IMG/VR virus record: IMGVR_UViG_3300003324_000282 | Span: 1-55,920 of that record | Length of the DNA stretch: 55,920 nt | DNA from: a virus | Taxonomy: Duplodnaviria; Caudoviricetes | Reading direction: 5' to 3' (one strand) | Shown here: one piece after another, positions 28,916 through 51,850 of the stretch | Layout of the letters: every line of letters begins with the position of its first letter | Numbering within the stretch: the first letter of the stretch is position 1 | Notes under the pieces: generated by a model | Told to the model about the DNA's origin: nothing | The model's database searches: none | The model's input: only the letters and a program-made list of their open reading frames with translations | Made by a program: the position numbers and the translations under genes

Positions 28916-28947
28916 TCGCAGGTAATACATCTCATATAATGAGACCC
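28916..28947 (+). promoter_or_regulatory. Phage promoter motif P1
   Basis: TCGCA-ggtaa-TAC-atctca-TATAAT-GAGACCC. Confidence 0.8.
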
Positions 28948-28963
28948 TAAAGAAGGAGAACAC

Positions 28964-29245
28964 ATGTTCGAAGTGAGAAAGTCAGCAAACGATGCTGGAC
29001 TTAAGAAAGCCATCGAGACTGTGTACTCTGAAATGGCCGGATCAGAAAGTTATACCGAAGAATATTCTAAATCGGTTGACCAGTTAACTAAGCTATACGC
29101 GTTGAAGGAACCACCTAGACGAGTTAGCCCAGATACACTGGCAATCGTGATTGGTAATATTCTTGGTATCATTCTGATTGTCGGTCATGAAAGAGCACAT
29201 ATCGTGACTTCGAAAGCTCTGCAATTCGTGCTGAAATCACGATGA
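28964..29245 (+). CDS. Cassette-encoded membrane protein
   Basis: Own promoter, RBS AAGGAG, C-terminal TM. Confidence 0.8.
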   Translation: MFEVRKSANDAGLKKAIETVYSEMAGSESYTEEYSKSVDQLTKLYALKEPPRRVSPDTLAIVIGNILGIILIVGHERAHIVTSKALQFVLKSR

Positions 29246-29265
29246 ACATTCTGTCCTGAAAGGAG

Positions 29266-29325
29266 GCTCGAAAGCGTAGAAGCTGTGTAAGAACAAATTA
29301 CATGGCTTCTACGTTTTCGGGTTTT
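29266..29325 (+). terminator. Intrinsic terminator (25-bp stem with G-U pairs)
   Basis: GCTCGAAAGCGTAGAAGCTGTGTAA / TTACATGGCTTCTACGTTTTCGGGT followed by T-run. Confidence 0.8.
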
Positions 29326-29351
29326 CTACATAGATTTTATATTTTTGCCTA

Positions 29352-29382
29352 TCGCAAAAGATACTTGGGCTTTAATGAAACC
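29352..29382 (+). promoter_or_regulatory. Phage promoter motif P2
   Basis: TCGCA-aaaga-TAC-ttgggc-TTTAAT-GAAACC. Confidence 0.7.
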
Positions 29383-29486
29383 AAACTACACCCAAACCGC
29401 AAGACCCCCTCCATACCGCGGAACCGCACTTCCCGGCTGCCTTGTGTACCTAACCCTCCGCCCACCAGGATTAGGTTTTTGTTTTT
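29377..29486 (+). ncRNA. Candidate C-rich small RNA
   Basis: Between P2 and terminator ACCTAACCCT..AGGATTAGGT-TTTTGTTTTT; no RBS; two CCCTCC motifs. Confidence 0.5.
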
Positions 29487-29522
29487 GAAAAATTACCCCT
29501 GGAGGAAAATTTGGAAAAAGTC

Positions 29523-29555
29523 TCGCAAAATTTACGTGGCTTATAACGAGACCCC
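29523..29555 (+). promoter_or_regulatory. Phage promoter motif P3
   Basis: TCGCA-aaatt-TAC-gtggct-TATAAC-GAGACCCC. Confidence 0.8.
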
Positions 29556-29575
29556 TACTATCTAAGGAGACCCAA

Positions 29576-29764
29576 ATGTCAGACACACTGAAAGATGAAT
29601 TCGCCGACAACTTTGGCAAGTACCTTGCAAAGACCCTCGCAGCAAGTACTGTTACCACAACAGGCATTGTGCTGGGAATGGCCACTGCAGGTTACATTAT
29701 CACTGTTGTCAAGAAATTCAACAAGAAGCGCGAAGATATGAAAAATCCCCATCTTAGTGACTGA
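29576..29764 (+). CDS. Cassette-encoded small membrane protein
   Basis: Own promoter, RBS TAAGGAG, one TM. Confidence 0.8.
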   Translation: MSDTLKDEFADNFGKYLAKTLAASTVTTTGIVLGMATAGYIITVVKKFNKKREDMKNPHLSD

Positions 29765-29769
29765 TCTCA

Positions 29770-29801
29770 AAGCTCAGAGTCCCACACGGACTTTGAGTTT
29801 T
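29770..29801 (+). terminator. Intrinsic terminator
   Basis: GCTCAGAGTCC-cacac-GGACTTTGAGT-TTT. Confidence 0.8.
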
Positions 29802-29833
29802 CGCAGATTTTACATCTCTTATAATGAGACCCC
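29801..29833 (+). promoter_or_regulatory. Phage promoter motif P4
   Basis: TCGCA-gattt-TAC-atctct-TATAAT-GAGACCCC. Confidence 0.8.
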
Positions 29834-29858
29834 CTCACCATCTATCTAAAGGAGAAAG

Positions 29859-30068
29859 ATGAACGAGCTCAAGCAAGAGACGCCCTCAACTCCTCGTCGA
29901 GTGAAGAACTTTGTGCAGAAGCATAAGGTCGCTATCACCGTTGTTGTCACCAGTACTGTCTGGATCTACATCAACCGTAGCGCCCTGAAGCAGCATAACG
30001 ACTTCCTCAAGGAGAAGGGACTCTACGACGAGTTCTACACACCCACTGATGAAGAAATGGGCGAGTAA
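29859..30068 (+). CDS. Cassette-encoded small membrane protein
   Basis: Own promoter, RBS AAAGGAG, one TM. Confidence 0.8.
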   Translation: MNELKQETPSTPRRVKNFVQKHKVAITVVVTSTVWIYINRSALKQHNDFLKEKGLYDEFYTPTDEEMGE

Positions 30069-30076
30069 CTCTCACA

Positions 30077-30114
30077 AGACTAGGACCCCTAACACGGGTT
30101 CTAGTTTTTTCTTT
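30077..30114 (+). terminator. Intrinsic terminator
   Basis: GACTAGGACCC-ctaacac-GGGTTCTAGTT-TTTT. Confidence 0.8.
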
Positions 30115-30115
30115 C

Positions 30116-30148
30116 TCGCATTTTTTACACTCATTATAACGAGACCCC
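30116..30148 (+). promoter_or_regulatory. Phage promoter motif P5
   Basis: TCGCA-ttttt-TAC-actcat-TATAAC-GAGACCCC. Confidence 0.8.
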
Positions 30149-30165
30149 TACTATAAGGAGAAGAA

Positions 30166-30426
30166 ATGTCCACCAAGAACAAGATCATCCTGTCTACCGT
30201 AATCGTCACCGCAGCTGGTGCACTTGCTTACTGGTTCAGTATTCTTGGTTCCGAGATTGCACTGTTCGAGCGCTTTCCCGACATCGACCCAAAGATCGTC
30301 GTGAAGGCACATCGAAAGTTCATTCGAGAAACCCTAAAAGGAACCTATAAGGATCGCGTCATCGTTACTGACGAAGACCACGACAAGGTATTTCTTGAAA
30401 TTGTGGAAGCTCTAACCACAAAGTAA
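30166..30426 (+). CDS. Cassette-encoded protein with N-terminal TM
   Basis: Own promoter, RBS TAAGGAG. Confidence 0.8.
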   Translation: MSTKNKIILSTVIVTAAGALAYWFSILGSEIALFERFPDIDPKIVVKAHRKFIRETLKGTYKDRVIVTDEDHDKVFLEIVEALTTK

Positions 30427-30433
30427 ACTCTTA

Positions 30434-30476
30434 AAAGGCTAAGTACCCTTACAAGGTACTTGGTCTTTGTGTTTTT
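30434..30476 (+). terminator. Intrinsic terminator
   Basis: AAAGGCTAAGTACC-cttacaa-GGTACTTGGTCTTT-GTGTTTTT. Confidence 0.75.
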
Positions 30477-30560
30477 GGTATAGGATCATATCAAGAACTA
30501 TATTCTAGTCGCTCTCCGTTGATGTCAGAGTCACTAATTCCTATAGGAATTATACTTTTT

Positions 30561-30633
30561 GCCCTACTAGCCCAATGGCAGAGGCAGAAGACTTAAAATC
30601 TTCCAAGTGTGGGTTCGAGTCCCACGTAGGGCA
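30561..30633 (+). tRNA. tRNA-Leu (anticodon TAA), short variable loop, CCA not encoded
   Basis: Acceptor GCCCTAC/GTAGGGC, D loop with TGG, anticodon arm GAAGA-CTTAAAA-TCTTC, T arm GTGGG-TTCGAGT-CCCAC, discriminator A. Confidence 0.9.
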
Positions 30634-30636
30634 CAA

Positions 30637-30669
30637 TCGCAAAAATTGCACGGCTTATAATGAGACCCC
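30637..30669 (+). promoter_or_regulatory. Phage promoter motif P6
   Basis: TCGCA-aaaat-TGC-acggct-TATAAT-GAGACCCC. Confidence 0.8.
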
Positions 30670-30688
30670 TACTATGAAAGGAAATGTC

Positions 30689-30883
30689 ATGAAAGAAGAC
30701 GCCAAACGATTTTACAACAAACTCAAGGCGCAAGCTCAAGAGAACCCTATGGCCGCCATCGTCATTGCCACCCTCGTTATTACCGCAACGAGCAAGCTGA
30801 TCGATGCTAACACCAGAAGGTCGAACGCTCGCGCTTGGGAAAAGGAAGTCGACCGTCGTCGTATTCAGTCATCCCGCAAGTAA
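30689..30883 (+). CDS. Cassette-encoded small membrane protein
   Basis: Own promoter, RBS GAAAGGA, one hydrophobic helix. Confidence 0.8.
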   Translation: MKEDAKRFYNKLKAQAQENPMAAIVIATLVITATSKLIDANTRRSNARAWEKEVDRRRIQSSRK

Positions 30884-30888
30884 CTCTC

Positions 30889-30925
30889 AAGCCTAGAGCC
30901 CTGCAAGGGTTTTAGGTTTTTCTTT
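30889..30925 (+). terminator. Intrinsic terminator
   Basis: AAGCCTAGAGCCC-tgcaa-GGGTTTTAGGTTT-TTCTTT. Confidence 0.8.
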
Positions 30926-30934
30926 GGAGGAGAC

Positions 30935-31039
30935 ATGAAGGTATCAGATAAGCAGTGTCCAAACATTGAACCAGAACCGCATCTTCTTGGCGAGTTTCCA
31001 ATGAGCTGTTATCAATGTCATATTTATGCTGACTCCTAG
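30935..31039 (+). CDS. 34-aa Cys/His mini-protein (not in ORF track)
   Basis: RBS GGAGGAG; MKVSDKQCPNIEPEPHLLGEFPMSCYQCHIYADS. Confidence 0.6.
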   Translation: MKVSDKQCPNIEPEPHLLGEFPMSCYQCHIYADS

Positions 31040-31042
31040 GGG

Positions 31043-31073
31043 TCGCATAAATTACATGGATCTTAATGAGAAG
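31043..31073 (+). promoter_or_regulatory. Phage promoter motif P7
   Basis: TCGCA-taaat-TAC-atggat-CTTAAT-GAGAAG. Confidence 0.7.
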
Positions 31074-31136
31074 AGACTTCATGTCTGTCCGAACCCTTGA
31101 ACGGGATACGGTTAACTTCTCCTATCTTTTTATTTT
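31068..31136 (+). ncRNA. Candidate small three-way-junction RNA or structured leader
   Basis: GAGAAG/CTTCTC closing stem, AGAC/GTCT and CCG..CCC/GGG..CGG hairpins, then T-rich tail; no ORF. Confidence 0.5.
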
Positions 31137-31169
31137 CGCCCATTCGGGCCACTATCGAAAGGAACTGAA

Positions 31170-31400
31170 ATGAGTGCTGACAATGGTTACATTCTTCGCA
31201 AGAACAAAGCGGGTAAGTACGCTTTGCAGCACTACTTCGCGAGTGCAGACGAACTACCTAATGTTGAGAAAGCAACAAAGGTCTTCGATACGGTCGAGGA
31301 AGCCATCCTGCACTACAACGCGCTTGAAAATGAAGCATCCCCATATGCCTCTGAGTATGGTCTCAGTGTGCAACTTATCGAAAGGAAAGACAATGCCTAA
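31170..31400 (+). CDS. Hypothetical protein
   Basis: RBS GAAAGGA. Confidence 0.7.
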   Translation: MSADNGYILRKNKAGKYALQHYFASADELPNVEKATKVFDTVEEAILHYNALENEASPYASEYGLSVQLIERKDNA

Positions 31401-31506
31401 GAAGTATGGTCTCGCTCGCTTTTTGTTTGACTTTTTCATGATCACTATCACGGGAGGTTTGTGGTTGCTCTGGATCGTCCTTAAATTCCTTCGGAAGAAT
31501 TCCTGA
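31393..31506 (+). CDS. Small membrane protein
   Basis: RBS GAAAGGA; FDFFM...TGGLWLLWI motif. Confidence 0.7.
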   Translation: MPKKYGLARFLFDFFMITITGGLWLLWIVLKFLRKNS

Positions 31507-31516
31507 GAGGATCAAA

Positions 31517-31687
31517 ATGGCACTGTTCTTCATCATCCTGGTATTCATGATTCTTATATTTTTGATCGCTGCTATTAGAGATGGCGTATCACTATTCGGT
31601 GATTGGAGACACCGCCACCAGGACGAACTAAAAACAGTAAATGGTTGGGACAAATTTCGTAACTTTGGGGAGGAGAACCGTAAGTGA
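31517..31687 (+). CDS. Small membrane protein (not in ORF track)
   Basis: RBS GAGAGG; N-terminal TM; GTGA overlap with next gene. Confidence 0.6.
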   Translation: MALFFIILVFMILIFLIAAIRDGVSLFGDWRHRHQDELKTVNGWDKFRNFGEENRK

Positions 31688-32487
31688 CCTCAACTAAATT
31701 GCTGAAGATGGCTGAGAAACTAATCGTGGATAATGCACCTACGATTCTAACTGGTATTGGTGTGGTAGGCACTGCTACTACTGCATATTTGACTGGTAAA
31801 GCCACCTTCAAGGCAGCAAAATTGATTGAGAAAGAGTCATTCAAGACAAAGATTCAAACACCAGCTGTACCGGGTCGACTACCTGATGAAGATCCTCTCA
31901 GTAACGTAGAGAAAGTTAAAATTGTCTGGAAAGTTTATGTTCTTCCAGCTGCTGTGGGTGTAGGTACAATCGCAGCGATTTTCTATGCTAATCGAATCAA
32001 CACAAAGCGAGCAGCAGCATTGGCAGCAGCATATGCCATCTCACAGGACAAGTTCTCAGACTACAAAGACAAAGTAGCTGATAAGCTTGGTGTGAAGAAG
32101 GAACAAGCTATTAAGGACGAGCTTGCACAAGATCAAGTAAACAAGAATCCGCCAAGTGGCGATTTGGTCATTGTTGGCAATGGTACCGTTCTTTGTAGAG
32201 ACGAATTTACTGGACGATATTTCCGTAGTTCTGTCGAAGCCATCAAACGAGCCGAAAATGAGATTAACTTCGAGATCATCAATAGCGGTTATGCAACTGT
32301 TAGTGACTTTTACGAACGAATCGGTTTGAAACCAACTTCGGTATCTGAACAATTTGGTTGGAATGTTCCTACCCGAAAGTTGGAGCTTGCTTGGACGGCA
32401 ATTATTACTCCAGACGACGAACCCTGTATGGCTTTTGACTTCAACGCATATCCTCTAAACCCGTATGGGATTTGTGCAGCGGAATAA
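31684..32487 (+). CDS. DUF6353-like protein
   Basis: PTILTGIGVVG..TA.L..KAT..A; RAAALAAAY; GRYF.S; GW near C-terminus; paralogue of 34611. Confidence 0.65.
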   Translation: MTSTKLLKMAEKLIVDNAPTILTGIGVVGTATTAYLTGKATFKAAKLIEKESFKTKIQTPAVPGRLPDEDPLSNVEKVKIVWKVYVLPAAVGVGTIAAIFYANRINTKRAAALAAAYAISQDKFSDYKDKVADKLGVKKEQAIKDELAQDQVNKNPPSGDLVIVGNGTVLCRDEFTGRYFRSSVEAIKRAENEINFEIINSGYATVSDFYERIGLKPTSVSEQFGWNVPTRKLELAWTAIITPDDEPCMAFDFNAYPLNPYGICAAE

Positions 32488-32498
32488 TTGATACAAAT

Positions 32499-32531
32499 TC
32501 GCATAAAATACATGGGTCATAATGAGACCCC
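32499..32531 (+). promoter_or_regulatory. Phage promoter motif P8
   Basis: TCGCA-taaaa-TAC-atgggt-CATAAT-GAGACCCC. Confidence 0.8.
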
Positions 32532-32551
32532 CATCTACCGAAAGGAACATC

Positions 32552-32722
32552 ATGTCCGAGCAGGTTACCCCGGTCGTCGAACTCCCCGTCACCACCTCCG
32601 CCCTCAAGCGTTGGTCAAAGCGCGCGGTTGTCGCTGCAGTTGCAGTTGGCGCCGCCGTTCTGGTCATCGCAAAGGTGCGAGGTAATAGCGAAGAGTCGGA
32701 CACCGACACCTCCCAGGCCTGA
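32552..32722 (+). CDS. Cassette-encoded small membrane protein
   Basis: Own promoter, RBS GAAAGGA, one TM. Confidence 0.8.
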   Translation: MSEQVTPVVELPVTTSALKRWSKRAVVAAVAVGAAVLVIAKVRGNSEESDTDTSQA

Positions 32723-32744
32723 TTCCACCAGGAACAAGGTCAAC

Positions 32745-32792
32745 AAGAGCAAGAGCTTTGTAGCAATACAAGGTTCTTGTTCTTTGCCTTTT
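32745..32792 (+). terminator. Intrinsic terminator (GNRA loop)
   Basis: AAGAGCAAGAGCTTTGTA-gcaa-TACAAGGTTCTTGTTCTT. Confidence 0.75.
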
Positions 32793-32812
32793 CATATTTA
32801 GAAAGGACAACT

Positions 32813-33343
32813 GTGCTTAAGAAGACAATCAAGTACAAGGATCTTGATGGGAATGATGTAGAGGATGACTTCTACTTCAATCTCAACAAGGCCGAGATCG
32901 CTGAACTTGAGCTTAGTAGAAAAGGTGGCTTGACCGCATATTTCCAGGCATTGATTGATGCAGATGAAGCTGGTCAAGTCGTTGCTATTTTCAAGGAGAT
33001 CCTTGAACGATCAATTGGTAAACGTTCAGCAGATGGTAAGCAATTCATTAAGAACCAAGAAATTCGTGACTCTTTCTTTCAGTCGGATGCATATTCTTCG
33101 TTGTTCATGGAATTCTTGGAGAATCCAACAGAAGAGATGGGTGCTGCGTTCATGCGCGGTATCGTGCCGGCAGATCTCGTTGATACTTTGCCACCTTTGA
33201 AGCCAAAGGGAACTACAGATGTTCAGTTGCCAAATAATGAACCAAATTGGCTCAAAGAAGGTCGAGTTCCAACAGCAGAAGAATTTGCCGCTGCTACGAC
33301 CGAACAGAAGCAAAAAGCTTTTCAAATGAAAACATCCCAGTAA
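32813..33343 (+). CDS. Conserved hypothetical, tail-assembly-chaperone-like
   Basis: RBS GAAAGGA; KKTIKY.D.DG....DFYFNL.KAEI..G.RS.DG..F.K pattern. Confidence 0.5.
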   Translation: MLKKTIKYKDLDGNDVEDDFYFNLNKAEIAELELSRKGGLTAYFQALIDADEAGQVVAIFKEILERSIGKRSADGKQFIKNQEIRDSFFQSDAYSSLFMEFLENPTEEMGAAFMRGIVPADLVDTLPPLKPKGTTDVQLPNNEPNWLKEGRVPTAEEFAAATTEQKQKAFQMKTSQ

Positions 33344-33366
33344 TCTATATTTTGAAAGGTATATCA

Positions 33367-33798: not shown

Positions 33799-33821
33799 AA
33801 CATATTCTGATTGGACAAATT

Positions 33822-34457: not shown

Positions 34458-34466
34458 GGGGAGGAG

Positions 34467-34601: not shown

Positions 34602-34610
34602 GGAGAAATT

Positions 34611-36887: not shown

Positions 36888-36904
36888 ATGCGAAAGGAGG
36901 GTAG

Positions 36905-39900
36905 GTGGACTTTTATCAGATCGGCACTAAAGAAACCAAGGGCGGAGTCATTGAGATATTCCCAGACTTCACTGTTGGCCGATCTAAAGACCTCATGGTG
37001 CGTGGACGTTCTTTCTATGCAATCTGGGATGAAGAAAAAGGTCTATGGTCTACGGACGAATACGATGTACAACGTTTAGTGGACAAAGAGCTTTCTGAGT
37101 TTGCAGACAAGCTGAAGAAAGACGGACATATTTGCACTGTAAAATACCTTCGTTCGTTCAGTAGTAACACTTGGAGTCAGTTTCAGAATTTTTTGAGCAA
37201 AGTTGGAGATAATGCTCATACGCTCGACCAGAATCTGACTTTCAGTAATACCGAAGTTTCGAAGTCTGATTATATAAGTAAACGTCTACCATACCCTCTC
37301 GCCCCAGGTTCTACTCCTGCTTGGGACGAGCTGATAGGTACATTATACTCTGTTGAGGAAAGAGCAAAAATTGAATGGGCAATTGGATCAGTCGTTTCAG
37401 GAGATTCTAAGAAAATCCAAAAGTTTCTCGTCTTATACGGACCTGCTGGAACAGGCAAGTCAACAGTTCTCAATATTGTCCAAAAACTGTTCGAAGGCTA
37501 CACAACTACTTTTGAAGCTAAGGCCCTTGCTTCCTCAAATGGAACCTTCTCGACAGAAGCATTCAAAAACAATCCACTAGTTGCAATTCAACATGATGGT
37601 GATTTGTCAAAGATCGAGGATAACACAAAACTGAACTCGATTGTTTCTCATGAAGAGATGACAATGAATGAGAAGTATAAACCGAGTTATACTGCTCGCG
37701 TTAACTCCTTCTTGTTCATGGGAACGAATCAACCAGTAAAGATATCTGATGCCAAGTCGGGTATCATTCGTCGTTTAATTGATGTTCATCCTACTGGCAT
37801 CAAGATTCCGATCAATCACTATCATACGTTAATGAGCAAGATTGACTTTGAGTTAGGTGCTATTGCGCATCGTTGTCTTGAAGTCTATCAACAAATGGGA
37901 AAGAACTATTACAACGGATATCGTCCACTCGAGATGATGTTACAAACAGATGTATTCTTTAACTTCATCGAGGCTAACTACGATATTTTCAAATCACAAA
38001 ATGGTACTTCCTTGAAGCAGGCATACGCGCTATACAAAGATTTCTGTAATGATACGGGAATTGAACGACAACTTCCACAATACAAGGTACGAGAAGAACT
38101 TCGTAACTACTTTGAAGACTTCAAAGACCGAGCTGTAGTTGATGGTGAGACAATTCGAAGTTATTACTATGGTTTCACCGCACATCCATTTAAAACGCCT
38201 TCTAAGGATGCTAACACGTTCTCGTTGGTTATTGATGAAACTACATCTATATTTGAGAAGTTATATGAAGATTGTGCAGCGCAGTATGCCAAAGAAGATG
38301 GAACTCCTCAAAAGAGGTGGATTACAGTAAAGACCAAGCTTAGTGATATTGATACCAGTCAACTTCACTACGTAAAGGTTCCTGATGATCATATTGTGAT
38401 TGACTTCGATCTTAAGGACGAGAATGGTAACAAAAGCTTGGAACGAAATTTGGAAGCAGCCAGCAGCTGGCCCGCTACCTACGCCGAAATCAGCAAATCT
38501 GGATCCGGCGTGCATCTACATTACCGTTATGACGGAGACGTTAACACCCTCTCTAGAAGCTTTGCTGATGGAGTTGAAGTTAAAGTCTTCAATGGTGATA
38601 GTTCTTTGCGCCGTCGATTCACAAAATGCAACAGTGTATCGATTAGCACAATAAGTAGTGGGCTCCCTACGAAGGAGAAGAAGGTGCTTCAATCCCAAAC
38701 TATCAAGAGCGAGAAAGGTCTTCGGGAACTTATCGCTCGAAATCTACGCAAGGAGATTCATCCAGGAACGAAGCCCTCTGTCGACTTCATCAAACATATT
38801 CTGGATCAAGCATATACAGATGGTTTGACCTATGATGTCTCAGACCTTCGACCAAAGCTAATTACATTCGCAAACAACAGTACCAATAGGCCATTAGAAT
38901 GTCTTAAGATCGTACAGAGCATGAAGTTCAAATCTGAGAAAGAAACAGAATCTGTTGACACTAGAAGTAATACTACATCAACAGCGGCTATGGATACATA
39001 TTCTGCTCCAGAAGATGATGTGATTGCTCCGTTCGATACTGAAGTATTTCCAAACCTATTTATTGTGTGCTGGAAGTATCGAGGGTCTGACCAAGTAGTA
39101 AAGATGATTAACCCATCACCTACAGAAATTGAAAAACTTGTCGAGCTCAAGTTAATTGGGTATAACAATCGACGGTTTGATAATCATATTCTGTATGCAC
39201 GAATTATGGGTTATAACAATCAGCAATTGTTCGAACTCTCACAAAAATTAATCAATGGTAACACCAGTGCATATTTTGGCGAAGCATATAATCTTTCTTA
39301 TGCAGATGCCTATGATTTTATCACAGACAAAAAGAGTTTGAAGAAGTTTCAAATTGAACTAGGTTTACCTCATGTTGAACTGGATTTGCCATGGGATCAG
39401 CCAGTTCCTGATGAACTAATTGACAAAGTTGTTGAATATTGTGTCAACGATGTGCTCAGTCTTGAATCGGTAATTGAAGAGCGAGAAGCAGATTTAGTTG
39501 CTCGACAAATTCTAGCTGAGTTATCTGGTCTGTCTATCAACGACACCACACAACGACACACAGCAGCAATTATATTTGGTAAGGATAACAAAAAACCACA
39601 GAAAGATTTCGTTTATACCCATTTAAGCAAGGAGTTTCCAGGATATGAGTATGATCGTGGCGTTAGTACGTATCGTGACGAAGTTGTCGGTGAAGGCGGC
39701 TATGTTTATGCTGAGCCTGGTATGTACAACGACGTTGCTCTCCTGGATGTGGCGTCTATGCACCCGACGTCGATCGAAGAGCTAAATCTGTTCGGACCAT
39801 ATACTCCGAATTTTACCGCTCTTAAGAACGCTCGTTTGGCTATCAAATATGGTGACTATTCATCAGCTCGAGAAATGATGGATGGTAAGCTTGCGCCATA

Positions 39901-40675
39901 TTTGAAGAATGAGAAAAACTCAGCGGCATTGGCCTATGCTTTGAAGATTGCAATCAACACAGTGTACGGTCTTACCGCGGCCAAGTTTGACAACCCGTTC
40001 AGAGACAATCGCAACATTGATAATATTGTAGCAAAGCGTGGTGCTCTGTTCATGATCGATTTAAAACATGCAGTACAGGAACAAGGTTATACTGTCGCTC
40101 ATATCAAAACGGACTCTATCAAGATTCCGGAAGCTACACAAGAGATCATCGATTTCGTTGTCAATTTTGGTACTAAATATGGCTATGAGTTCGAACACGA
40201 GGCTACGTATGACAAATTTTGTCTCGTGAACGATGCAGTTTATATTGCACACAAGCCCGAGAGTAACATTTGGGTTGCAGTAGGAGCTCAGTTCCAGCAT
40301 CCGTATGTGTACAAAACATTGTTCAGTGGCGAAGAAATTGAATTTGACGACTTGTGTGAGACAAAACAAGTTATGCAGGGCGTTATGTATCTAGAATATC
40401 CGGACAATGTTCGAGAGCATGTCGGTAGGATTGGAAGATTTGTTCCAGTGCTTGAAGGTGGTGGCACGTTGTTGCGGGTTAAGGATGACAAAGCCTACGC
40501 AGTTACAGGCACCAAGAACTACGAGTGGGTTGAAGCCGAGATGGCTCGAAATAACCAAGATACAATCAAGATTAACATGTCATATTTCGAGAAGCTAGCT
40601 AATGATGCTCGAGATGCTATCGATTATTATGGATCATTCCATGATTTTGTGCTACTAGATGGGGTCAATAGATAA
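36905..40675 (+). CDS. Fused SF3/D5-like helicase + AEP primase + family-B-like DNA polymerase with proofreading exonuclease
   Basis: GPAGTGKS Walker A; VIDFD and SKSGSGVHLHY primase motifs; FDTE, GYN...FD, YC.ND exonuclease motifs; DVASMHP, K...N..YG, KTDS polymerase motifs. Confidence 0.9.
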   Translation: MDFYQIGTKETKGGVIEIFPDFTVGRSKDLMVRGRSFYAIWDEEKGLWSTDEYDVQRLVDKELSEFADKLKKDGHICTVKYLRSFSSNTWSQFQNFLSKVGDNAHTLDQNLTFSNTEVSKSDYISKRLPYPLAPGSTPAWDELIGTLYSVEERAKIEWAIGSVVSGDSKKIQKFLVLYGPAGTGKSTVLNIVQKLFEGYTTTFEAKALASSNGTFSTEAFKNNPLVAIQHDGDLSKIEDNTKLNSIVSHEEMTMNEKYKPSYTARVNSFLFMGTNQPVKISDAKSGIIRRLIDVHPTGIKIPINHYHTLMSKIDFELGAIAHRCLEVYQQMGKNYYNGYRPLEMMLQTDVFFNFIEANYDIFKSQNGTSLKQAYALYKDFCNDTGIERQLPQYKVREELRNYFEDFKDRAVVDGETIRSYYYGFTAHPFKTPSKDANTFSLVIDETTSIFEKLYEDCAAQYAKEDGTPQKRWITVKTKLSDIDTSQLHYVKVPDDHIVIDFDLKDENGNKSLERNLEAASSWPATYAEISKSGSGVHLHYRYDGDVNTLSRSFADGVEVKVFNGDSSLRRRFTKCNSVSISTISSGLPTKEKKVLQSQTIKSEKGLRELIARNLRKEIHPGTKPSVDFIKHILDQAYTDGLTYDVSDLRPKLITFANNSTNRPLECLKIVQSMKFKSEKETESVDTRSNTTSTAAMDTYSAPEDDVIAPFDTEVFPNLFIVCWKYRGSDQVVKMINPSPTEIEKLVELKLIGYNNRRFDNHILYARIMGYNNQQLFELSQKLINGNTSAYFGEAYNLSYADAYDFITDKKSLKKFQIELGLPHVELDLPWDQPVPDELIDKVVEYCVNDVLSLESVIEEREADLVARQILAELSGLSINDTTQRHTAAIIFGKDNKKPQKDFVYTHLSKEFPGYEYDRGVSTYRDEVVGEGGYVYAEPGMYNDVALLDVASMHPTSIEELNLFGPYTPNFTALKNARLAIKYGDYSSAREMMDGKLAPYLKNEKNSAALAYALKIAINTVYGLTAAKFDNPFRDNRNIDNIVAKRGALFMIDLKHAVQEQGYTVAHIKTDSIKIPEATQEIIDFVVNFGTKYGYEFEHEATYDKFCLVNDAVYIAHKPESNIWVAVGAQFQHPYVYKTLFSGEEIEFDDLCETKQVMQGVMYLEYPDNVREHVGRIGRFVPVLEGGGTLLRVKDDKAYAVTGTKNYEWVEAEMARNNQDTIKINMSYFEKLANDARDAIDYYGSFHDFVLLDGVNR

Positions 40676-40884
40676 TGCCACAAATTCGAACATATGAAGT
40701 ATCACAAACACGAAAAGTAAAAGTCACTGCAAATAATCCAGCAGATGCTGTAGCAATTGCAAATGCTGCATTTACTAATGGACAAAATAGTGACAGAGGT
40801 GCGAAAGATGCCCCGGCGGGTATTTGGGGTAATATCTCTTCGGAAATTAGAATTGCAGATATGACTTGTTATGAGGAGATCTAA
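40675..40884 (+). CDS. Hypothetical protein
   Basis: TAATG coupling to the replicase gene. Confidence 0.65.
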   Translation: MPQIRTYEVSQTRKVKVTANNPADAVAIANAAFTNGQNSDRGAKDAPAGIWGNISSEIRIADMTCYEEI

Positions 40885-41382
40885 ATGGTAAGAGAGCGTG
40901 ATCGAAAGAACTGGACATTTGAAGATCATCGAGTTATTTTCAAGAACTTTGCTGGTAAGCCTGGACCATTTAACGCAGAGGGAGATAGAAACTTCGCACT
41001 CTGTCTAGACGATCCCAAGGAAGCCAAAGAGCTTGAAAAAGAAGGTTGGAATGTCAAGTATCTAGACCCAAGAGAGGATGGTGATGCTGCTCAGGCATAT
41101 TTGCCCTGCTCAGTCAGCTTCAAAAACTATCCACCGAAGATTTACATGATTACTTCTCGTGGGCGTACTCTTCTTGGTGAACACGAAGTTGAATTACTTG
41201 ATTATGCTGACTATGAGACTGTTGATGTCATTGTTCGACCTTATGAATGGGTTATCAGTGGAAAGACTGGTATCAAGGCATACGTAAAGTCGATGTATGT
41301 AACGATCCAGGAAGATGATCTGGACATGAAGTATCGTGACGTGGCGGATGTTCCTACTCGTTCTGGAAAGACATATGAATAA
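40885..41382 (+). CDS. Putative single-stranded DNA-binding protein
   Basis: IFKNF.G....N.EG.RNF, GWNVK, RPY.W...GK.GIKAY pattern; follows the replicase. Confidence 0.6.
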   Translation: MVRERDRKNWTFEDHRVIFKNFAGKPGPFNAEGDRNFALCLDDPKEAKELEKEGWNVKYLDPREDGDAAQAYLPCSVSFKNYPPKIYMITSRGRTLLGEHEVELLDYADYETVDVIVRPYEWVISGKTGIKAYVKSMYVTIQEDDLDMKYRDVADVPTRSGKTYE

Positions 41383-41396
41383 AGATTTGGGGACTC

Positions 41397-42191
41397 ATGA
41401 CTGAGCATAGTATTTTAATCCGTAAAATTGATGATGTTCGCAAACCTAGATTAAAAACTGGTGCAATTTTTAAAGAAGATTCTCGAAATCTTGACTTTGT
41501 GCATTCAGATCGAATGGCTGCTCGAGCTCAACCGCCATTACCGATTACTGATGTGAACTGGCCACGACACATCAAAATCATGAATCAAAATGCCTCAGTA
41601 ACAGTTAATGGTCGACGTTATAACGGACTTGGCAGTTGTGTGCCTAACAGTGGTATTACTACTCTTTCTACTGGACCATTCAAGCCACCATATCCACGTC
41701 CTACTGAGCAAAAGACCATTGTTCCACTATATGAGACACTGAGTGCTGAGCTCGGTCCGGAGTATGCTTTTCCTCCGAACGACAAAGGTTGCAGCATCGG
41801 TGACTTTATGTCATTGGCGATAGAACGTGGCTGGATCTCTGAGTACAACTGGGTATATACCTTAGATGACATGCTGCAAGCACTGATGCATGGACCAGTT
41901 CAAGTAGCAATTGCATATCTTCATTCATATGAGCGAGATGCTAGTAGTGCTCGTTTCCCTGTGCATTTGAAGAGTGGTATTATTAGTTTTCATGCTTTGT
42001 GTGCCGATGAAGTTCGACTTAGCAAAAAGCAAGTTTGGTACACAAATAGTTGGGGTCATGTTGGTGCTAGAGATGCAAAAGGTAACTGGACTGGTAAATT
42101 CTATCAGACCTTTACTGATCTGGAACGGTTATTTAAGAGCAACAATATTCAGGTTGCAGTACCAATTCCTTCTCCTACTAGGAGGGTATAA
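41397..42191 (+). CDS. Second papain-like cysteine peptidase
   Basis: NQ..GLGSC, FHAL, TNSWG; colinear similarity to 529-1395. Confidence 0.75.
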   Translation: MTEHSILIRKIDDVRKPRLKTGAIFKEDSRNLDFVHSDRMAARAQPPLPITDVNWPRHIKIMNQNASVTVNGRRYNGLGSCVPNSGITTLSTGPFKPPYPRPTEQKTIVPLYETLSAELGPEYAFPPNDKGCSIGDFMSLAIERGWISEYNWVYTLDDMLQALMHGPVQVAIAYLHSYERDASSARFPVHLKSGIISFHALCADEVRLSKKQVWYTNSWGHVGARDAKGNWTGKFYQTFTDLERLFKSNNIQVAVPIPSPTRRV

Positions 42192-42283
42192 TGACAATGT
42201 TGCTGGTAGGTGCTGGAATTACTCTTTTTTCAATGGTCATCGGATACGCTCTCGGTGCGGCTAAGAACGAAGATAAAAACTAA
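42191..42283 (+). CDS. 30-aa single-TM protein (not in ORF track)
   Basis: RBS GGAGG, TAATG coupling. Confidence 0.55.
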   Translation: MTMLLVGAGITLFSMVIGYALGAAKNEDKN

Positions 42284-42319
42284 ACATTTCCTCCCGATGG
42301 TAAAGGACTAAACTTAATT

Positions 42320-42631
42320 ATGGAAACGCGAACGTTTATCCGTAAGTCGTTCGAGGTTGAGGCAGTTCAGGTTACTGCTGAAAATATGATGGAAGTATCC
42401 AAATGGTGTCAGGGGCGAGTTGTAAATGCCAATGGCGATGAGGAACGGCATATTAAGGTTCGAGTTCTCAGAGTCTTGGATGAGCGACAGACTAAAGCTT
42501 TTGTCGGAGACTGGGTACTCTATGCCGGTAATGGGTACAAGGTGTACAACAACAAAGCTTTTCAAAAGAGTTTTGAGCCTGTTGGTGAGGAACTTCGCGT
42601 CGTGGATGAGCCTGCCGAGGCAACTACTTGA
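42320..42631 (+). CDS. Conserved phage protein (RK.F.VEAVQ..GDW...F.K.FE), possible Acb4-like sponge
   Basis: Motif pattern; RBS AAAGGA. Confidence 0.5.
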   Translation: METRTFIRKSFEVEAVQVTAENMMEVSKWCQGRVVNANGDEERHIKVRVLRVLDERQTKAFVGDWVLYAGNGYKVYNNKAFQKSFEPVGEELRVVDEPAEATT

Positions 42632-42789
42632 TTATTCTAGCATTCCTTTGTTTGGCATTTCCTATCGGAATTTGGCTTGGGTTGGAAGGGTATGAACTGC
42701 CAGCCTTATTCTGTCTTATTTTTGGTTGGGCTCCTGCTGCAACTGTAATTGTCTCTGTCATAACAAAGGAACGCAGAAACATAAAATAG
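42628..42789 (+). CDS. Two-TM small membrane protein (not in ORF track)
   Basis: TTGA overlap; 53 aa, hydrophobic. Confidence 0.5.
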   Translation: MIILAFLCLAFPIGIWLGLEGYELPALFCLIFGWAPAATVIVSVITKERRNIK

Positions 42790-42790
42790 T

Positions 42791-43012
42791 TAACAAGCTT
42801 CCTGGAGAGGGGTCTCTGGGAAAATGGGTGCTATCCGTCCTGTGCTAATTCAATGGGATACGGGCTGTTAAGTACGGGAAGTCAGCCCATCCTTATAAGC
42901 GCCGACGAGCGCCTAGTCGTCCTGTGTCGAGCGCACTTTTACAACGGGCAGGATGGGAGAGTCGCGGGCCTGGCTACAACAGCGACACAATCGTGGCAAC
43001 AAGGCCACTACA
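42791..43012 (+). ncRNA. Candidate structured RNA (~220 nt)
   Basis: GC-rich intergenic stretch with several helices and alternative pairings. Confidence 0.45.
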
Positions 43013-43030
43013 TGAAAGGAAGTGACAGTT

Positions 43031-43270
43031 ATGCCTCCGGAGAACGAGGGCCAGGAGACACCGGTTGCTCAGTCGCAGACTGCTGAGGAGCCGCGGGGTT
43101 CGAACGAGCCCAACACCACTGAGACGGCTCAGACAGATGTTACAGCACCAGATCGTGCTGAGGAAAAGAAGGTTGACGTTCCTCAGAATGAGACATCTGT
43201 TACGGATGACAGGGCCGCGGAAGCTGGTCCGACCGATGCCGGCACAGTTTCGGGTGACACCACCCCGTAG
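43031..43270 (+). CDS. Acidic low-complexity protein
   Basis: RBS GAAAGGA; rich in E/D/T/P, almost no hydrophobic core. Confidence 0.65.
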   Translation: MPPENEGQETPVAQSQTAEEPRGSNEPNTTETAQTDVTAPDRAEEKKVDVPQNETSVTDDRAAEAGPTDAGTVSGDTTP

Positions 43271-43274
43271 TTAA

Positions 43275-43346
43275 AGGTTTGTGGGGACCACGCTTTGGTG
43301 GGTGCGTGGCTTAAACGACCGACTATATCTCCGGCGCCCACAACCT
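43275..43346 (+). ncRNA. Three-way-junction RNA motif, copy 2
   Basis: AGGTTTGTGGG/CCCACAACCT; CCACGC/GCGTGG; TTAAA; CG-A-CCG..CGG-CG. Confidence 0.55.
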
Positions 43347-43378
43347 CGCAAGATATACAGGGGTTATTATGAGACCCC
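43346..43378 (+). promoter_or_regulatory. Phage promoter motif P9
   Basis: TCGCA-agata-TAC-aggggt-TATTAT-GAGACCCC. Confidence 0.8.
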
Positions 43379-51821: not shown

Positions 51822-51850
51822 CCGCTGTGAATACGTAGATTATAATGAAG
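51822..51850 (+). promoter_or_regulatory. Variant phage promoter motif P10 upstream of the nuclease-RNAP operon
   Basis: CCGCT-gtgaa-TAC-gtagat-TATAAT-GAAG, same spacing as P1-P9. Confidence 0.65.

What the first reader, a model, noticed from the sequence alone, without database searches (positions are those of the whole stretch)
28916..43378. Ten copies of a non-canonical promoter with rigid spacing: YCGCW-N5-TAC-N6-TATAAY-GAGACCCC
Seen at 28916, 29352, 29523, 29801, 30116, 30637, 31043, 32499, 43346 and (variant) 51822. All are intergenic, on the + strand and identically spaced, with 14 nt between TCGCA and the -10-like hexamer rather than the 16-18 nt after TTGACA of housekeeping promoters. 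A conserved mid-spacer TAC and a conserved downstream GAGACCCC are also present. Inference: the recognition site of the phage's own RNAP, whose HTHs could replace sigma. The alternative is host RNAP plus a phage activator. I am not aware of a defined promoter consensus for this RNAP class.
Basis: partly seen in the sequence, partly recalled or inferred. Interest (0 to 1): 0.88.

Follow-up and report, generated by a model that had tools for sequence, protein, structure and literature searches.

The report
Conserved promoter of a phage RNA polymerase
A 33-base sequence repeated in front of this phage's early genes recurs in distant relatives that all encode the same unusual RNA polymerase, so it is probably that enzyme's own promoter, though no experiment shows this yet.

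Summary
The window is a whole 55.9-kb siphophage genome. It holds seven full copies of TCGCA-N5-TAC-N6-TATAAT-GAGACCCC, two degenerate copies and one variant (51822). All lie on the + strand with identical spacing. The first copy starts 8 nt after the holin gene.

The motif follows the phage lineage, not the host. Its TAC-N6-TATA(A/G)T core recurs in all 9 RNAP-encoding genomes examined, from six host genera plus an oral contig and the window's own unknown host. All 10 long IMG/VR contigs tested that carry the motif encode the RNAP.

The 896-aa protein folds like QDE-1 and P74-26 gp62, has an invariant DFDGD loop, and carries HTH domains at both ends. No copy fits a sigma-70 promoter: the spacer is 14 nt and there is no TGn. 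In the Lactococcus relatives the Shine-Dalgarno sequence abuts the hexamer.

Best reading (about 0.6): this is the cognate promoter of the phage's two-barrel RNAP. Main rival (about 0.22): host RNAP plus a phage activator, as at T4 middle promoters. I found no published consensus, but three key older papers could not be read. No transcript 5' ends were available.

The parts
28916..28948 (+). Promoter-like copy 1 (TCGCA..TAC..TATAAT GAGACCCT). It starts 8 nt after the holin gene. The start codon of a 93-aa gene (phrog_5818) is at 28964.
29352..29384 (+). Degenerate copy (hexamer TTTAAT, then GAAACCAA). It follows the terminator at 29271-29317. No SD-led ORF follows, so it may drive a short non-coding RNA.
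29523..29555 (+). Full copy (hexamer TATAAC); start codon at 29576 (62 aa).
29801..29833 (+). Full copy; start codon at 29859 (69 aa, phrog_12653).
30116..30148 (+). Full copy (TATAAC), 8 nt after the terminator at 30076-30108; start codon at 30166 (86 aa).
30637..30669 (+). Full copy (TGC in place of TAC), 3 nt after tRNA-Leu; start codon at 30689 (64 aa, phrog_13500).
31043..31075 (+). Degenerate copy (CTTAAT, GAGAAGAG) with a leader of about 95 nt before the SD-led ATG at 31170 (76 aa, phrog_16893).
32499..32531 (+). Full copy (CATAAT); start codon at 32552 (56 aa). The terminator at 32745-32784 follows, then the replication genes, which have no further copy for 10.8 kb.
43346..43378 (+). 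Full copy (TATTAT); start codon at 43396 (61 aa); the terminator at 43586-43620 follows.
51822..51854 (+). Second-class variant (CCGCT..TAC-N6-TATAAT-GAAGGGAG) upstream of the endonuclease-exonuclease-RNAP operon. The same variant sits at the same place in Xenomorph and Secretariat, and in degenerate form in HotFries.
52725..55415 (+). 896-aa two-barrel (QDE-1-like) RNA polymerase. GADFDGD lies at residues 507-513 (nt 54243-54263). The N-terminal HTH is at residues 84-116 (nt 52974-53072). The C-terminal three-helix HTH is at about residues 858-892 (nt 55296-55400).
55415..55684 (+). 89-aa acidic protein (phrog_4303). Its start overlaps the RNAP stop codon, and it lies next to the RNAP in all relatives examined. 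Its role is unknown.
29271..29317 (+). Intrinsic-terminator-like hairpin plus T-run. It is the first of six that bracket the small transcription units; the others are at 30076-30108, 30434-30468, 30889-30919, 32745-32784 and 43586-43620.
28525..28908 (+). Holin gene, the last gene of the structural/lysis arm. It marks the boundary just before the first promoter copy.
30561..30634 (+). tRNA-Leu(TAA) embedded in the promoter cluster.

Best explanation
The motif is the cognate promoter of the phage's own single-polypeptide, two-barrel (QDE-1-like) RNA polymerase, the 896-aa product of 52725-55415.

Proposed mechanism, all of it inferred:
- The enzyme's helix-turn-helix modules read two upstream elements, TCGCA and TAC(A). 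These elements and the hexamer sit at roughly 10-bp centre-to-centre intervals, so all three lie on one face of the helix.
- The AT-rich TATAAT box is the melting region and abuts the start site.
- Transcription begins at or next to the purine-rich GAGA that follows the hexamer.
- The 7 full copies therefore drive short early transcription units, each a small gene usually closed by a hairpin/T-run terminator, and all of these mRNAs share a 5'-GAGACCCC leader.
- A second class (51822), with the same TAC-N6-TATAAT core but different flanks, drives the nuclease-RNAP operon.
- The enzyme may arrive with the DNA as a virion protein. I hold this last step at about 0.5.

Shown here: the motif, its statistics, its rigid spacing, its lineage-wide co-occurrence with the RNAP gene, the phage-specific variation of the upstream element, and the polymerase fold with its catalytic loop. 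Inferred: which protein reads the motif, where the start site is, and when the units are expressed.
For: 1. The motif is real and is the only repeated non-coding family in the window apart from terminator hairpins.

2. The same architecture recurs in all 9 RNAP-encoding genomes examined, at GC contents from 33% to 61%. These are the window, Streptomyces HotFries, Gordonia Secretariat, Rhodococcus Pepy6, Arthrobacter Xenomorph and CapnMurica, oral contig D_HF4_2, and Lactococcus P078 and 1706.

In 55 of the 55 loci with two or more matches, all copies are on one strand. I tested 10 of the 120 contigs, chosen as those longer than 41 kb with a single listed match, and 10 of 10 encode the RNAP at E <= 3e-229. 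For comparison, the RNAP occurs in 250 of 50,697 phage records.

4. TCGCA was not part of that search pattern. It still sits at a fixed offset in 205 unique instances, with per-base frequencies of 0.98, 1.00, 1.00, 0.94 and 0.87. That is rigid spacing with no +/-1 play.

5. Two clusters that infect the same strain, Arthrobacter sp. ATCC 21022, differ in the pentamer. CapnMurica has TCGCA at 7 of 7 sites and Xenomorph has NCGCG at 5 of 5.

6. According to Koert et al. (passages read), few genes are shared across the whole lineage. Of these, only the HTH/RNAP protein is a DNA binder.

7. PHROG scans of 20 early and middle proteins found no sigma factor or regulator.

8. The protein is a polymerase. 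D509, D511 and D513 are invariant in 60 sequences. The AF2 model has pLDDT 86.5. Foldseek's top hits are QDE-1 (E 3e-10), P74-26 gp62 (E 7e-8) and RDR2, followed by beta-prime subunits.

9. The copies do not fit a sigma-70 promoter. The sigma-70 scan of 27.5-44.5 kb calls none of the copies. The upstream element lies 14 nt from the hexamer, and there is no TGn.

10. In Lactococcus 1706 and P078 an extended SD (AGAAAGAAGGT, GAAAGAAGG) begins at the first or second base after the hexamer. A start 7 nt downstream would remove most of that SD.

11. The GenBank record of 1706 calls the homologue a 'structural protein', and the Pepy6 record repeats this. That fits virion delivery.
Against: - There are no transcript 5' ends, no rifampicin data and no in vitro data for any member. 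No sequencing run could be listed for the window.
- The hexamer is a perfect sigma-A -10 consensus. In Actinobacteria, -10-only promoters are common (my own knowledge, not tested here).
- In the crAss-like phage phi14:2, which also has a two-barrel virion RNAP, the conserved tripartite motif proved to be a host sigma-70 promoter, and the phage enzyme's early transcripts had no common motif (passages read).
- Counted as a sigma-70 promoter, TCGCA would be centred near -29. That geometry matches T4 MotA-dependent middle promoters (recalled).
- The SD-adjacency argument is not strict. A residual AGG(A/T) would remain on a very short leader.
- The collection contains no close relative lacking the RNAP. 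The natural control used for P23-45 therefore does not exist here.
- The hexamer variation in 306 instances does not discriminate. Position 2 is A in 93% and position 6 is T in 99%.
- 'Structural protein' is a depositor's label. I could not check its basis.
Confidence: 0.6

Rival explanations
1. These are host-RNAP promoters that depend on a phage-encoded activator, as in sigma appropriation at T4 middle promoters. In this reading sigma-A reads TATAAT as a -10 element. A phage protein reads TCGCA/TAC in place of a -35 element. That protein could be the HTH domains of the 896-aa protein itself, expressed first from the 51822-type promoter.
For: - The hexamer is a perfect -10 consensus.
- TCGCA would be centred near -29, like a MotA box (recalled, not tested).
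- The upstream element varies by phage cluster in a single host strain. This demands a phage-encoded reader but does not say which enzyme polymerises.
- The 51822 class lacks TCGCA. It could therefore be the activator-independent first step.
- There is a crAss-like precedent for a conserved host-type motif in a phage that has its own two-barrel RNAP.
Against: - It leaves a conserved, catalytically intact polymerase without any promoter. This motif is the only repeated non-coding family in the genome apart from terminator hairpins.
- No MotA-, AsiA-, sigma- or regulator-like protein was found among the 20 early and middle proteins scanned.
- The spacing is rigid, with no +/-1 play.
- In the GAGACCCC clade, the positions 6-9 nt after the hexamer are all pyrimidines. 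These are poor sigma-70 start sites.
- In the Lactococcus phages the SD abuts the hexamer, and they have neither a -35 element nor TGn.
Confidence: 0.22
2. These are ordinary strong early promoters for host sigma-A holoenzyme alone. The extra conserved blocks would be kept by shared descent, or would act as UP-like or discriminator elements. The phage RNAP would transcribe other (late) genes from unrecognised signals.
For: - TATAAT is universal for primary sigma factors.
- The copies lie in front of the first genes after the late arm, as early promoters do.
- The crAss virion RNAP has no recognisable motif.
Against: - The flanks have been conserved at fixed offsets across relatives whose RNAPs are only 39-59% identical and whose hosts span two phyla.
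- The pentamer differs between clusters on the same host strain.
- There is no -35 element at 16-18 nt, and none of the copies is called by the sigma-70 scan.
- A 20-specified-base version of the motif occurs on only 5 short contigs in one genome each of 185,579 species. Two of those 5 assemblies also carry the phage RNAP.
Confidence: 0.08
3. This is not primarily a promoter. It could be an operator array for a repressor or shut-off protein. It could also be a conserved 5' leader acting at the RNA level, in translation or stability, on transcripts made from elsewhere.
For: - The GAGACCCC(TAC)GAAAGG leader is conserved together with the SD.
- Actinobacteriophage clusters are known to carry start-associated sequences and other intergenic repeats of unknown role (passages read in PMC7302621).
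Against: - Most copies directly follow a hairpin/T-run terminator or the end of an operon. Something must restart transcription there.
- The upstream half (TCGCA..TAC..TATAAT) is as conserved as the leader.
- In the Lactococcus phages some copies precede tRNA-like sequence rather than an ORF. I read this by eye and did not test it with a tRNA finder.
Confidence: 0.05

Closest known systems
Promoters of the two QDE-1/crAss-like RNAPs of Thermus phage P23-45 (gp96 virion RNAP, AT-rich motif; gp64 non-virion RNAP, GC-rich motif), Chaban et al. 2024, PMC10770324 (passages read)
   Same: - Both are siphoviruses with a single-polypeptide two-barrel RNAP.
- Both have conserved motifs upstream of (pre-)early genes.
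- The same argument applies, that the motif travels with the polymerase gene among relatives.
- The crystal structure of the gp64 homologue, P74-26 gp62 (8f5m), is among the top fold matches of the window's protein (E 7e-8).
   Different: - The P23-45 promoters were defined by ONT-cappable-seq and ChIP-seq. Here nothing is mapped.
- The word 'helix-turn-helix' occurs 0 times in that paper, whereas this enzyme has HTHs at both ends.
- Here the motif is tripartite with a TATAAT box.
- I could not see their motif logos because supplements and figures are not held. Sequence likeness between the motifs is therefore untested.
Virion RNAP gp66 of crAss-like phage phi14:2 (bioRxiv 10.1101/2020.03.07.982082, passages read)
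   Same: Both are two-barrel, QDE-1-like phage RNAPs with a DFDxD loop. gp66 is virion-packaged and transcribes early genes. The same is suspected here from the 'structural protein' label on the 1706 homologue.
   Different: gp66's early transcripts showed no common upstream motif. The conserved -35/-10-like motif of that phage is a host sigma-70 promoter for middle and late genes. If the present motif belongs to the phage enzyme, the situation here is the reverse.
YonO of Bacillus prophage SPbeta (Forrest et al. 2017, PMC5467207, passages read)
   Same: Both are single-peptide RNAPs homologous to multisubunit RNAPs and encoded by a siphovirus-type phage.
   Different: [quoted passage not shown] The present family has many copies of a defined motif in front of early-region genes. 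I did not measure sequence or fold relatedness to YonO.
T7-type single-subunit RNAP promoters (recalled textbook knowledge)
   Same: It would work in the same way:
- one contiguous, rigidly spaced block of about 25-33 bp read by one polypeptide;
- an AT-rich TATA stretch abutting the start;
- a purine-rich initially transcribed sequence;
- many copies on one strand, with short units and terminators.
   Different: The enzyme fold is unrelated (two-barrel, not right-hand Pol I-like). Upstream recognition would be by HTH modules. Membership is excluded.
Sigma-70/sigma-A promoters and T4 MotA-dependent middle promoters (recalled)
   Same: Both have a TATAAT hexamer. In sigma-70 numbering the upstream box lies near -30, as at MotA-dependent promoters.
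   Different: There is no -35 element at 16-18 nt, no TGn, and no +/-1 play in spacing. The sequence immediately downstream of the hexamer is conserved. No MotA or AsiA homologue was seen.

Membership tests
Two-barrel (double-psi beta-barrel) QDE-1/crAss/YonO-like single-polypeptide RNAP (PHROG 4291) | Metal-binding DxDGD loop | tested here: met
   GADFDGD lies at residues 507-513. A508, D509, D511, G512 and D513 are invariant in 60 aligned relatives of 43-84% identity.
Two-barrel (double-psi beta-barrel) QDE-1/crAss/YonO-like single-polypeptide RNAP (PHROG 4291) | Fold likeness to solved members | tested here: met
   The AF2 model has pLDDT 86.5 and pTM 0.74. Foldseek against the PDB gives QDE-1 7y7r at E 3.1e-10, P74-26 gp62 8f5m at E 6.7e-8 and maize RDR2 at E 8e-6, followed by beta-prime and Rpb1 chains. 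Whole-chain TM-scores are low (about 0.3), which is expected for multidomain proteins. phrog_4291 matches at E = 0 over 4-894.
Two-barrel (double-psi beta-barrel) QDE-1/crAss/YonO-like single-polypeptide RNAP (PHROG 4291) | DNA-templated RNA synthesis | not testable with these tools
   This needs purified protein. I found no experiment on any member of this family in the papers I could search or read.
Sigma-70-type (primary sigma) promoter | -10 hexamer close to TATAAT | tested here: met
   All 7 full copies have 5-6 of 6 matches. TATAAT is the hexamer in 221 of 306 family instances, but this set is biased by the TATAAT seed pattern.
Sigma-70-type (primary sigma) promoter | -35 element (TTGACA-like) 16-18 nt upstream, or a TGn extended -10 | tested here: not met
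   The consensus scan of 27500-44500 sites, and none is a motif copy. The conserved upstream block lies 14 nt from the hexamer. The bases before the hexamer are CT, CA or TC, never TGn. P078 has neither element.
Sigma-70-type (primary sigma) promoter | Start site 6-9 nt downstream of the hexamer, sensitive to rifampicin | not testable with these tools
   No RNA run could be listed. Indirect evidence: those positions are CCCC or CCCT in the GAGACCCC clade, and the SD abuts the hexamer in the Lactococcus phages.
Cognate promoter of a phage-encoded single-polypeptide RNAP (functional class, as for T7 or P23-45) | Multi-copy, one-strand, rigidly spaced block upstream of genes | tested here: met
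Cognate promoter of a phage-encoded single-polypeptide RNAP (functional class, as for T7 or P23-45) | Co-occurrence with the polymerase gene across genomes and independence from the host | tested here: met
   The motif is present in 9 of 9 RNAP-bearing genomes and the RNAP in 10 of 10 motif-bearing long IMG/VR contigs. Variants differ on the same host strain. The converse could not be tested: no relatives lacking the RNAP were found.
Cognate promoter of a phage-encoded single-polypeptide RNAP (functional class, as for T7 or P23-45) | Accurate initiation by the purified enzyme, with mapped 5' ends | not testable with these tools
   No data.
T4 MotA/AsiA-type activator-dependent middle promoter | A -10 element plus an activator box near -30, and an activator/co-activator pair | tested here: inconclusive
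   The geometry is compatible (TCGCA would be centred near -29). No regulator-annotated family was hit among 20 early and middle proteins in PHROGs. MotA and AsiA were not searched for specifically, and many small ORFs were left unscanned.

The most novel reading that the evidence does not exclude
The motif is the first sequence-defined promoter grammar for an HTH-bearing two-barrel single-polypeptide RNAP. This is a large family, with 873 clusters at 50% identity reaching E <= 1e-30, found in phages of both Actinobacteria and Firmicutes.

In this reading:
- The enzyme is carried in the virion and injected.
- It recognises duplex DNA by itself through built-in HTH readers of TCGCA and TAC, a sigma-like function fused to the catalytic chain.
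- It melts a TATAAT box that abuts the start site.
- It needs no host factor.

The likeness to a sigma-70 -10 element would then be convergence on an easily melted sequence. Cluster-specific pentamers (CGCA versus CGCG) would mark orthogonal enzyme/promoter pairs.
Probability: 0.3. Interest if true: 0.82.

Novelty: new variant of a known kind. Interest (0 to 1): 0.62.

Why it matters
Phage-encoded two-barrel RNAPs (YonO, crAss gp66, P23-45 gp64 and gp96) are recent discoveries. Their promoter recognition is largely unknown. YonO's promoter was left undetermined, and gp66's early transcripts showed no motif.

Here a very large and so far uncharacterised branch of that group comes with a sharp, lineage-wide consensus and an obvious candidate reader, the terminal HTH domains. 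That makes the question of how a sigma-less, cellular-type catalytic core finds promoters directly testable. The test needs one purified protein and a 40-bp DNA.

If the enzyme is self-sufficient, the family would also offer compact, possibly orthogonal transcription modules for Gram-positive hosts. It would explain as well how these phages express early genes in hosts as different as Streptomyces and Lactococcus. If the motif instead proves to be host-dependent, it would be a new case of an activator replacing -35 recognition.

Tried and rejected
- **Public sequencing runs.** The look-up of sequencing runs on 28800-33000 listed none. This is no evidence either way.
- **RNAP with its 89-aa neighbour.** Complex prediction on alignments A1 and A2 gave no verdict, with scores 0.00 and 0.01 against a mark of 0.32. 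This is not evidence for or against binding.
- **Rfam.** A scan of the whole window at gathering thresholds found only the tRNA. No known RNA family explains the leaders.
- **Sequence search of the PDB with the RNAP.** Nothing better than E 0.07 was found. Only the fold search showed the relationship.
- **RNAP N-terminal peptide versus DUF7211.**
  - I tested whether the invariant, disordered N-terminal peptide of the RNAP (HYG..R.SGRYPWGSG) is the same motif as DUF7211, which is found in three small head-module proteins.
  - Pfam does not match the RNAP N-terminus.
  - A profile of that peptide ranks two of the three DUF7211 proteins first among 603 ORFs, but at E 0.74 and 1.4. This is not significant, so I dropped it as evidence for packaging.
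- **HTH recognition helix versus pentamer.** I compared the C-terminal HTH recognition helices with the upstream pentamers in 8 genomes. The differences are too few to call covariation.
- **Hexamer substitution pattern.** It does not separate a sigma-70 reading from another reading.
- **RNAP-less close relatives as a natural control.** The primase-polymerase finds the same roughly 252 records, so no such control is available.
- **Literature.**
  - Ten searches found no description of this motif. One search was swamped by 'cluster bi(ogenesis)'.
  - Klyczek 2017 has 0 hits for 'promoter' and for 'motif', and Pope 2017 has 0 hits for 'promoter' (term counts only).
  - Koert et al. has 0 hits for 'promoter'.
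  - Summer et al. 2011 (PMC3020559) is not held. I did not see Garneau et al. 2008 on phage 1706 or Kot et al. 2014. Any of these three may already describe the repeat.
  - Supplements were closed and figures are not held. The P23-45 motif logos and Koert's Fig. S1 were therefore not seen.

Full report
**1. What the window is**

The window is a complete 55,920-bp virus record with 43% G+C. All plausible genes lie on the + strand.
- The left 28.9 kb encodes the endolysin, terminase, portal, protease/capsid, tail proteins, tape measure, Dit and minor tail proteins, and a holin at 28525-28908.
- Next comes a block of small genes.
- After that come replication genes, including a 1256-aa primase-polymerase, an annealing protein, thymidylate synthase and a helicase.
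- At the far right lies an endonuclease-exonuclease-RNAP operon, followed by an 89-aa gene.

**2.

- The downstream half, TATAAYGAGACCCC, with up to 2 mismatches occurs 7 times. Shuffles expect 0.38, and 0 of 100 reach 7.
- The upstream half, TCGC[AT]-N5-T[AG]C-N6-hexamer, occurs 9 times on the + strand and never on the - strand.
- The spacing is the same in every copy.
- Seven copies are full. Two are degenerate in both the hexamer and the downstream block (29352, 31043). One (51822) keeps only TAC-N6-TATAAT-GA.
- The first copy starts 8 nt after the holin gene.
- The seven full copies lie 23-33 nt upstream of a start codon with an SD.
- Long hairpin/T-run terminators close most of the small units: 24 terminator-like sites were found against 13.4 expected.
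- The repeat finder shows that this is the only repeated non-coding family in the genome besides the terminator hairpins.

**3. The copies are not canonical sigma-70 promoters**

The sigma-70 consensus scan of 27.5-44.5 kb finds 17 sites, fewer than the 30.4 expected from shuffles, and none coincides with a copy. The conserved upstream block lies 14 nt from the hexamer, and no copy has TGn.

**4. The 896-aa protein is a polymerase**

- It matches phrog_4291 ('RNA-dependent RNA polymerase') end to end at E = 0.
- Pfam sees only HTH domains, at residues 84-116 and about 861-892. The C-terminal one weakly resembles sigma-70 region 4.
- It contains GADFDGD, and D509, D511 and D513 are invariant in 60 relatives.
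- A sequence search of the PDB finds nothing.
- An AlphaFold2 model with pLDDT 86.5 matches QDE-1 at E 3e-10, P74-26 gp62 at E 7e-8 and plant RDR2, followed by the large subunits of cellular RNAPs.
- The family is large. 873 clusters at 50% identity reach E <= 1e-30, and 250 of 50,697 phage records carry it.
- That this protein may be an RNAP was already proposed by Koert et al. (bioRxiv 10.1101/842583) from HHpred and the DxDGD motif. I read passages only. The word 'promoter' does not occur in that paper.

**5. The motif travels with the phage lineage, not the host**

The full motif, including the GAGACCCC(TAC)GAAAGG leader, is present in three further phages:
- Streptomyces phage HotFries (61% GC), with 6 clear copies;
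- Gordonia phage Secretariat (53% GC), with 8 copies;
- Rhodococcus phage Pepy6.

Other relatives carry variants:
- Arthrobacter phage CapnMurica has TCGCA-N5-TAC-N6-TATAAT-GA at 7 sites.
- Arthrobacter phage Xenomorph has NCGCG-N5-TAC-N6-TATAAT followed by purines at 5 sites, plus the operon variant.
- An oral-metagenome phage has the motif with GAGAAC(T/C)AAC downstream.
- Lactococcus P078 has TTTTACATACCCTATAATGA(A/G)AGG.
- Lactococcus 1706 has (C/G)CACA/CGCA-N5-TAC-N6-TATAGT-AGAAAGAAGG.

Counts of the strict core TAC-N6-TATA[AG]T, + strand / - strand, with the mononucleotide-shuffle mean in brackets:

| Genome | + / - | Shuffle mean |
|---|---|---|
| Window | 3 / 0 | 0.82 |
| HotFries | 2 / 0 | 0.07 |
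| Secretariat | 10 / 0 | 0.21 |
| Xenomorph | 6 / 2 | 0.55 |
| Pepy6 | 4 / 0 | 0.31 |
| D_HF4_2 | 3 / 0 | 0.26 |
| P078 | 11 / 2 | 1.73 |
| 1706 | 12 / 0 | 1.42 |

The low strict counts in the window and HotFries reflect hexamer variants. The looser patterns recover these.

**6. Motif to polymerase**

- These hold 239 matches. All 55 loci with two or more matches have every copy on one strand.
- I tested 10 of the 120 contigs, chosen as those longer than 41 kb with a single listed match. All 10 encode the RNAP at E <= 3e-229.
- Across 205 unique instances, the TCGCA block was not part of the pattern. It still sits at a fixed offset, with frequencies 0.98, 1.00, 1.00, 0.94 and 0.87.

A 20-specified-base version was scanned across one genome for each of 185,579 bacterial and archaeal species. 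It occurs on 5 contigs, 4 of them of 3-5 kb and one of 50.6 kb. Two of the 5 assemblies also contain the RNAP, and one of those matches lies near the end of a large contig. The motif is therefore not a common feature of host genomes.

The converse control was not possible. The primase-polymerase finds the same roughly 252 records, so the collection holds no close relative that lacks the RNAP.

**7.

CapnMurica and Xenomorph were both isolated on Arthrobacter sp. ATCC 21022. One uses CGCA at 7 of 7 sites and the other uses CGCG at 5 of 5. A host factor would not impose two different optima in one strain.

By Koert et al.'s account, the genes shared across the whole lineage are few, and only the HTH/RNAP protein among them binds DNA. 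PHROG scans of 20 early and middle proteins of the window found no sigma factor or regulator.

**8. Where transcription probably starts (inference)**

In phage 1706, most copies read TATAGT followed at once by AGAAAGAAGGT, a near-perfect extended SD, with the ATG 19 nt after the hexamer. P078 shows the same arrangement. A sigma-70-type start about 7 nt downstream would remove most of that SD.

In the GAGACCCC clade, the positions 6-9 nt after the hexamer are all pyrimidines. Both points suggest a start at or next to the first purine after the hexamer, as at T7-type promoters.

Neither point is strict. A short leader with a residual AGG remains conceivable.

**9. Geometry (inference)**

The centres of TCGCA, TAC(A) and the hexamer lie about 9.5-10 bp apart. 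All three therefore face one side of the helix. That would suit two HTH modules plus a melting site on one polypeptide.

**10. A second promoter class**

The 51822 variant sits upstream of the endonuclease-exonuclease-RNAP operon. The same TAC-N6-TATAAT core, followed by a purine-rich stretch (AGGGAG or AGAAAGG), sits at the same place in Xenomorph and Secretariat. HotFries has a degenerate form. The enzyme's own operon thus carries a related but distinct signal.

**11. Virion delivery (weak)**

The GenBank record of Lactococcus phage 1706 labels the homologue (orf75) 'structural protein', alongside other scattered 'structural proteins'. The Pepy6 record repeats the label. I recall that such labels in the 1706 paper came from virion mass spectrometry, but I could not read that paper. 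If the label is correct, the enzyme could transcribe the early units on arrival, as N4 (recalled), crAss-like and P23-45 virion RNAPs do.

**12. Evidence against my reading**

- Nothing is mapped, and no run was listed.
- The hexamer is a perfect sigma-A -10 element.
- In crAss-like phi14:2 the conserved -35/-10-like motif was a host promoter, and the phage enzyme had no motif.
- Numbered as a sigma-70 promoter, TCGCA would lie near -29, as the MotA box does at T4 middle promoters (recalled).
- The 51822 class could be an activator-independent first step.
- The hexamer substitution pattern is uninformative.

For these reasons I put the phage-RNAP promoter reading at about 0.6. I put host RNAP plus a phage activator at about 0.22, host RNAP alone at about 0.08, and a non-promoter role at about 0.05.

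**13. Novelty**

The polymerase prediction is in print, in Koert et al. and in RefSeq and PHROG labels. Cognate promoters for phage two-barrel RNAPs are known for P23-45. They are undefined for YonO and undetectable for crAss gp66.

I found no description of the present motif in ten full-text searches. The cluster papers I could open do not mention it either. Summer 2011 (not held), Garneau 2008 and Kot 2014 were not seen, and supplements were closed.

I file it as a new variant of a known kind. It is a promoter grammar for an HTH-bearing branch of two-barrel phage RNAPs, supported by comparative evidence only.

Noticed in passing
window 6264-6665, 8913-9275, 9280-9690 (+): Three small proteins flanking terminase and portal each begin with the DUF7211 motif (L.H[YFH]G[IV].GM.WG), at 34-38 bits against a cut-off of 27. 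By eye it resembles the invariant, disordered N-terminal peptide of the RNAP (HYGILRKSGRYPWGSG). A profile test was not significant (E 0.74 and 1.4). It might be a shared capsid-targeting or ejection signal.
   Followed up: partly
window 30446-30475, 32763-32792, 43598-43627; also 30076-30108 and 30889-30919: The terminator hairpins share sequence (loop region CCCTTACAAGG or CCCTAACACGGG), not just shape. Similar words (AAACACGGG, TATAGGCTTT) are among the most frequent 9-mers in the oral phage D_HF4_2 and appear just upstream of several of its promoter copies. This could be a lineage-specific terminator.
   Followed up: partly
window 29985-30044, inside the 69-aa gene 29859-30068 (phrog_12653): A 60-nt stretch is 92-93% identical to about 20 Streptomyces phages of much higher G+C. 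This is unusually high DNA conservation for a small gene in otherwise diverged genomes.
   Followed up: no
window 29385-29522 and 31076-31169: The two degenerate motif copies are followed by about 95-140 nt with no SD-led ORF. These may be small non-coding RNAs or long leaders. Rfam finds nothing there.
   Followed up: partly
L126 45700-46050, L004 32250-32640, L005 45920-46330, L003 44840-45100: In the relatives, the long non-coding region upstream of the nuclease/RNAP operon is packed with short direct and inverted repeats (GTGGCCAA in Xenomorph, TGGGACA in D_HF4_2, CTTCGGGA in 1706, CCCGGA in P078). These look like iterons and may be an origin or a regulator array. I did not examine the window's equivalent region.
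   Followed up: no
window 55415-55684 (+): An 89-aa acidic protein (phrog_4303) has a start codon that overlaps the RNAP stop codon. It follows the RNAP in every relative examined, and 328 relatives were found. It has 18 invariant residues. It might be an accessory factor, but the complex prediction gave no verdict.
   Followed up: partly
window 1-160 and 55800-55920: The genome ends carry C/G runs and an extremely AT-rich stretch of about 80 nt. The Pepy6 record annotates a 3' cos overhang. Just before the first gene the window reads TAC-TATAGT-GAAAGGAG. This looks like the hexamer-plus-SD arrangement of the Lactococcus phages, but it lacks the N6 spacer and is not conserved in HotFries.
   Followed up: partly
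window 31684-32487 and 34611-35531 (+): Two paralogous genes of the same unknown family (phrog_2152, E 4e-76 and 1e-87) lie 2 kb apart in the early/replication region.
   Followed up: no
window 11473-11607 (+): Four 27-nt tandem repeats lie inside the protease/capsid fusion gene and encode a repeated acidic and glycine-rich peptide.
   Followed up: no
L003 about 19498 and L005 about 25361: In the Lactococcus phages a motif copy is followed by tRNA-like sequence (GCTCAGAGGGAGAGC) rather than by an ORF. I read this by eye and did not run a tRNA finder on these loci.
   Followed up: no
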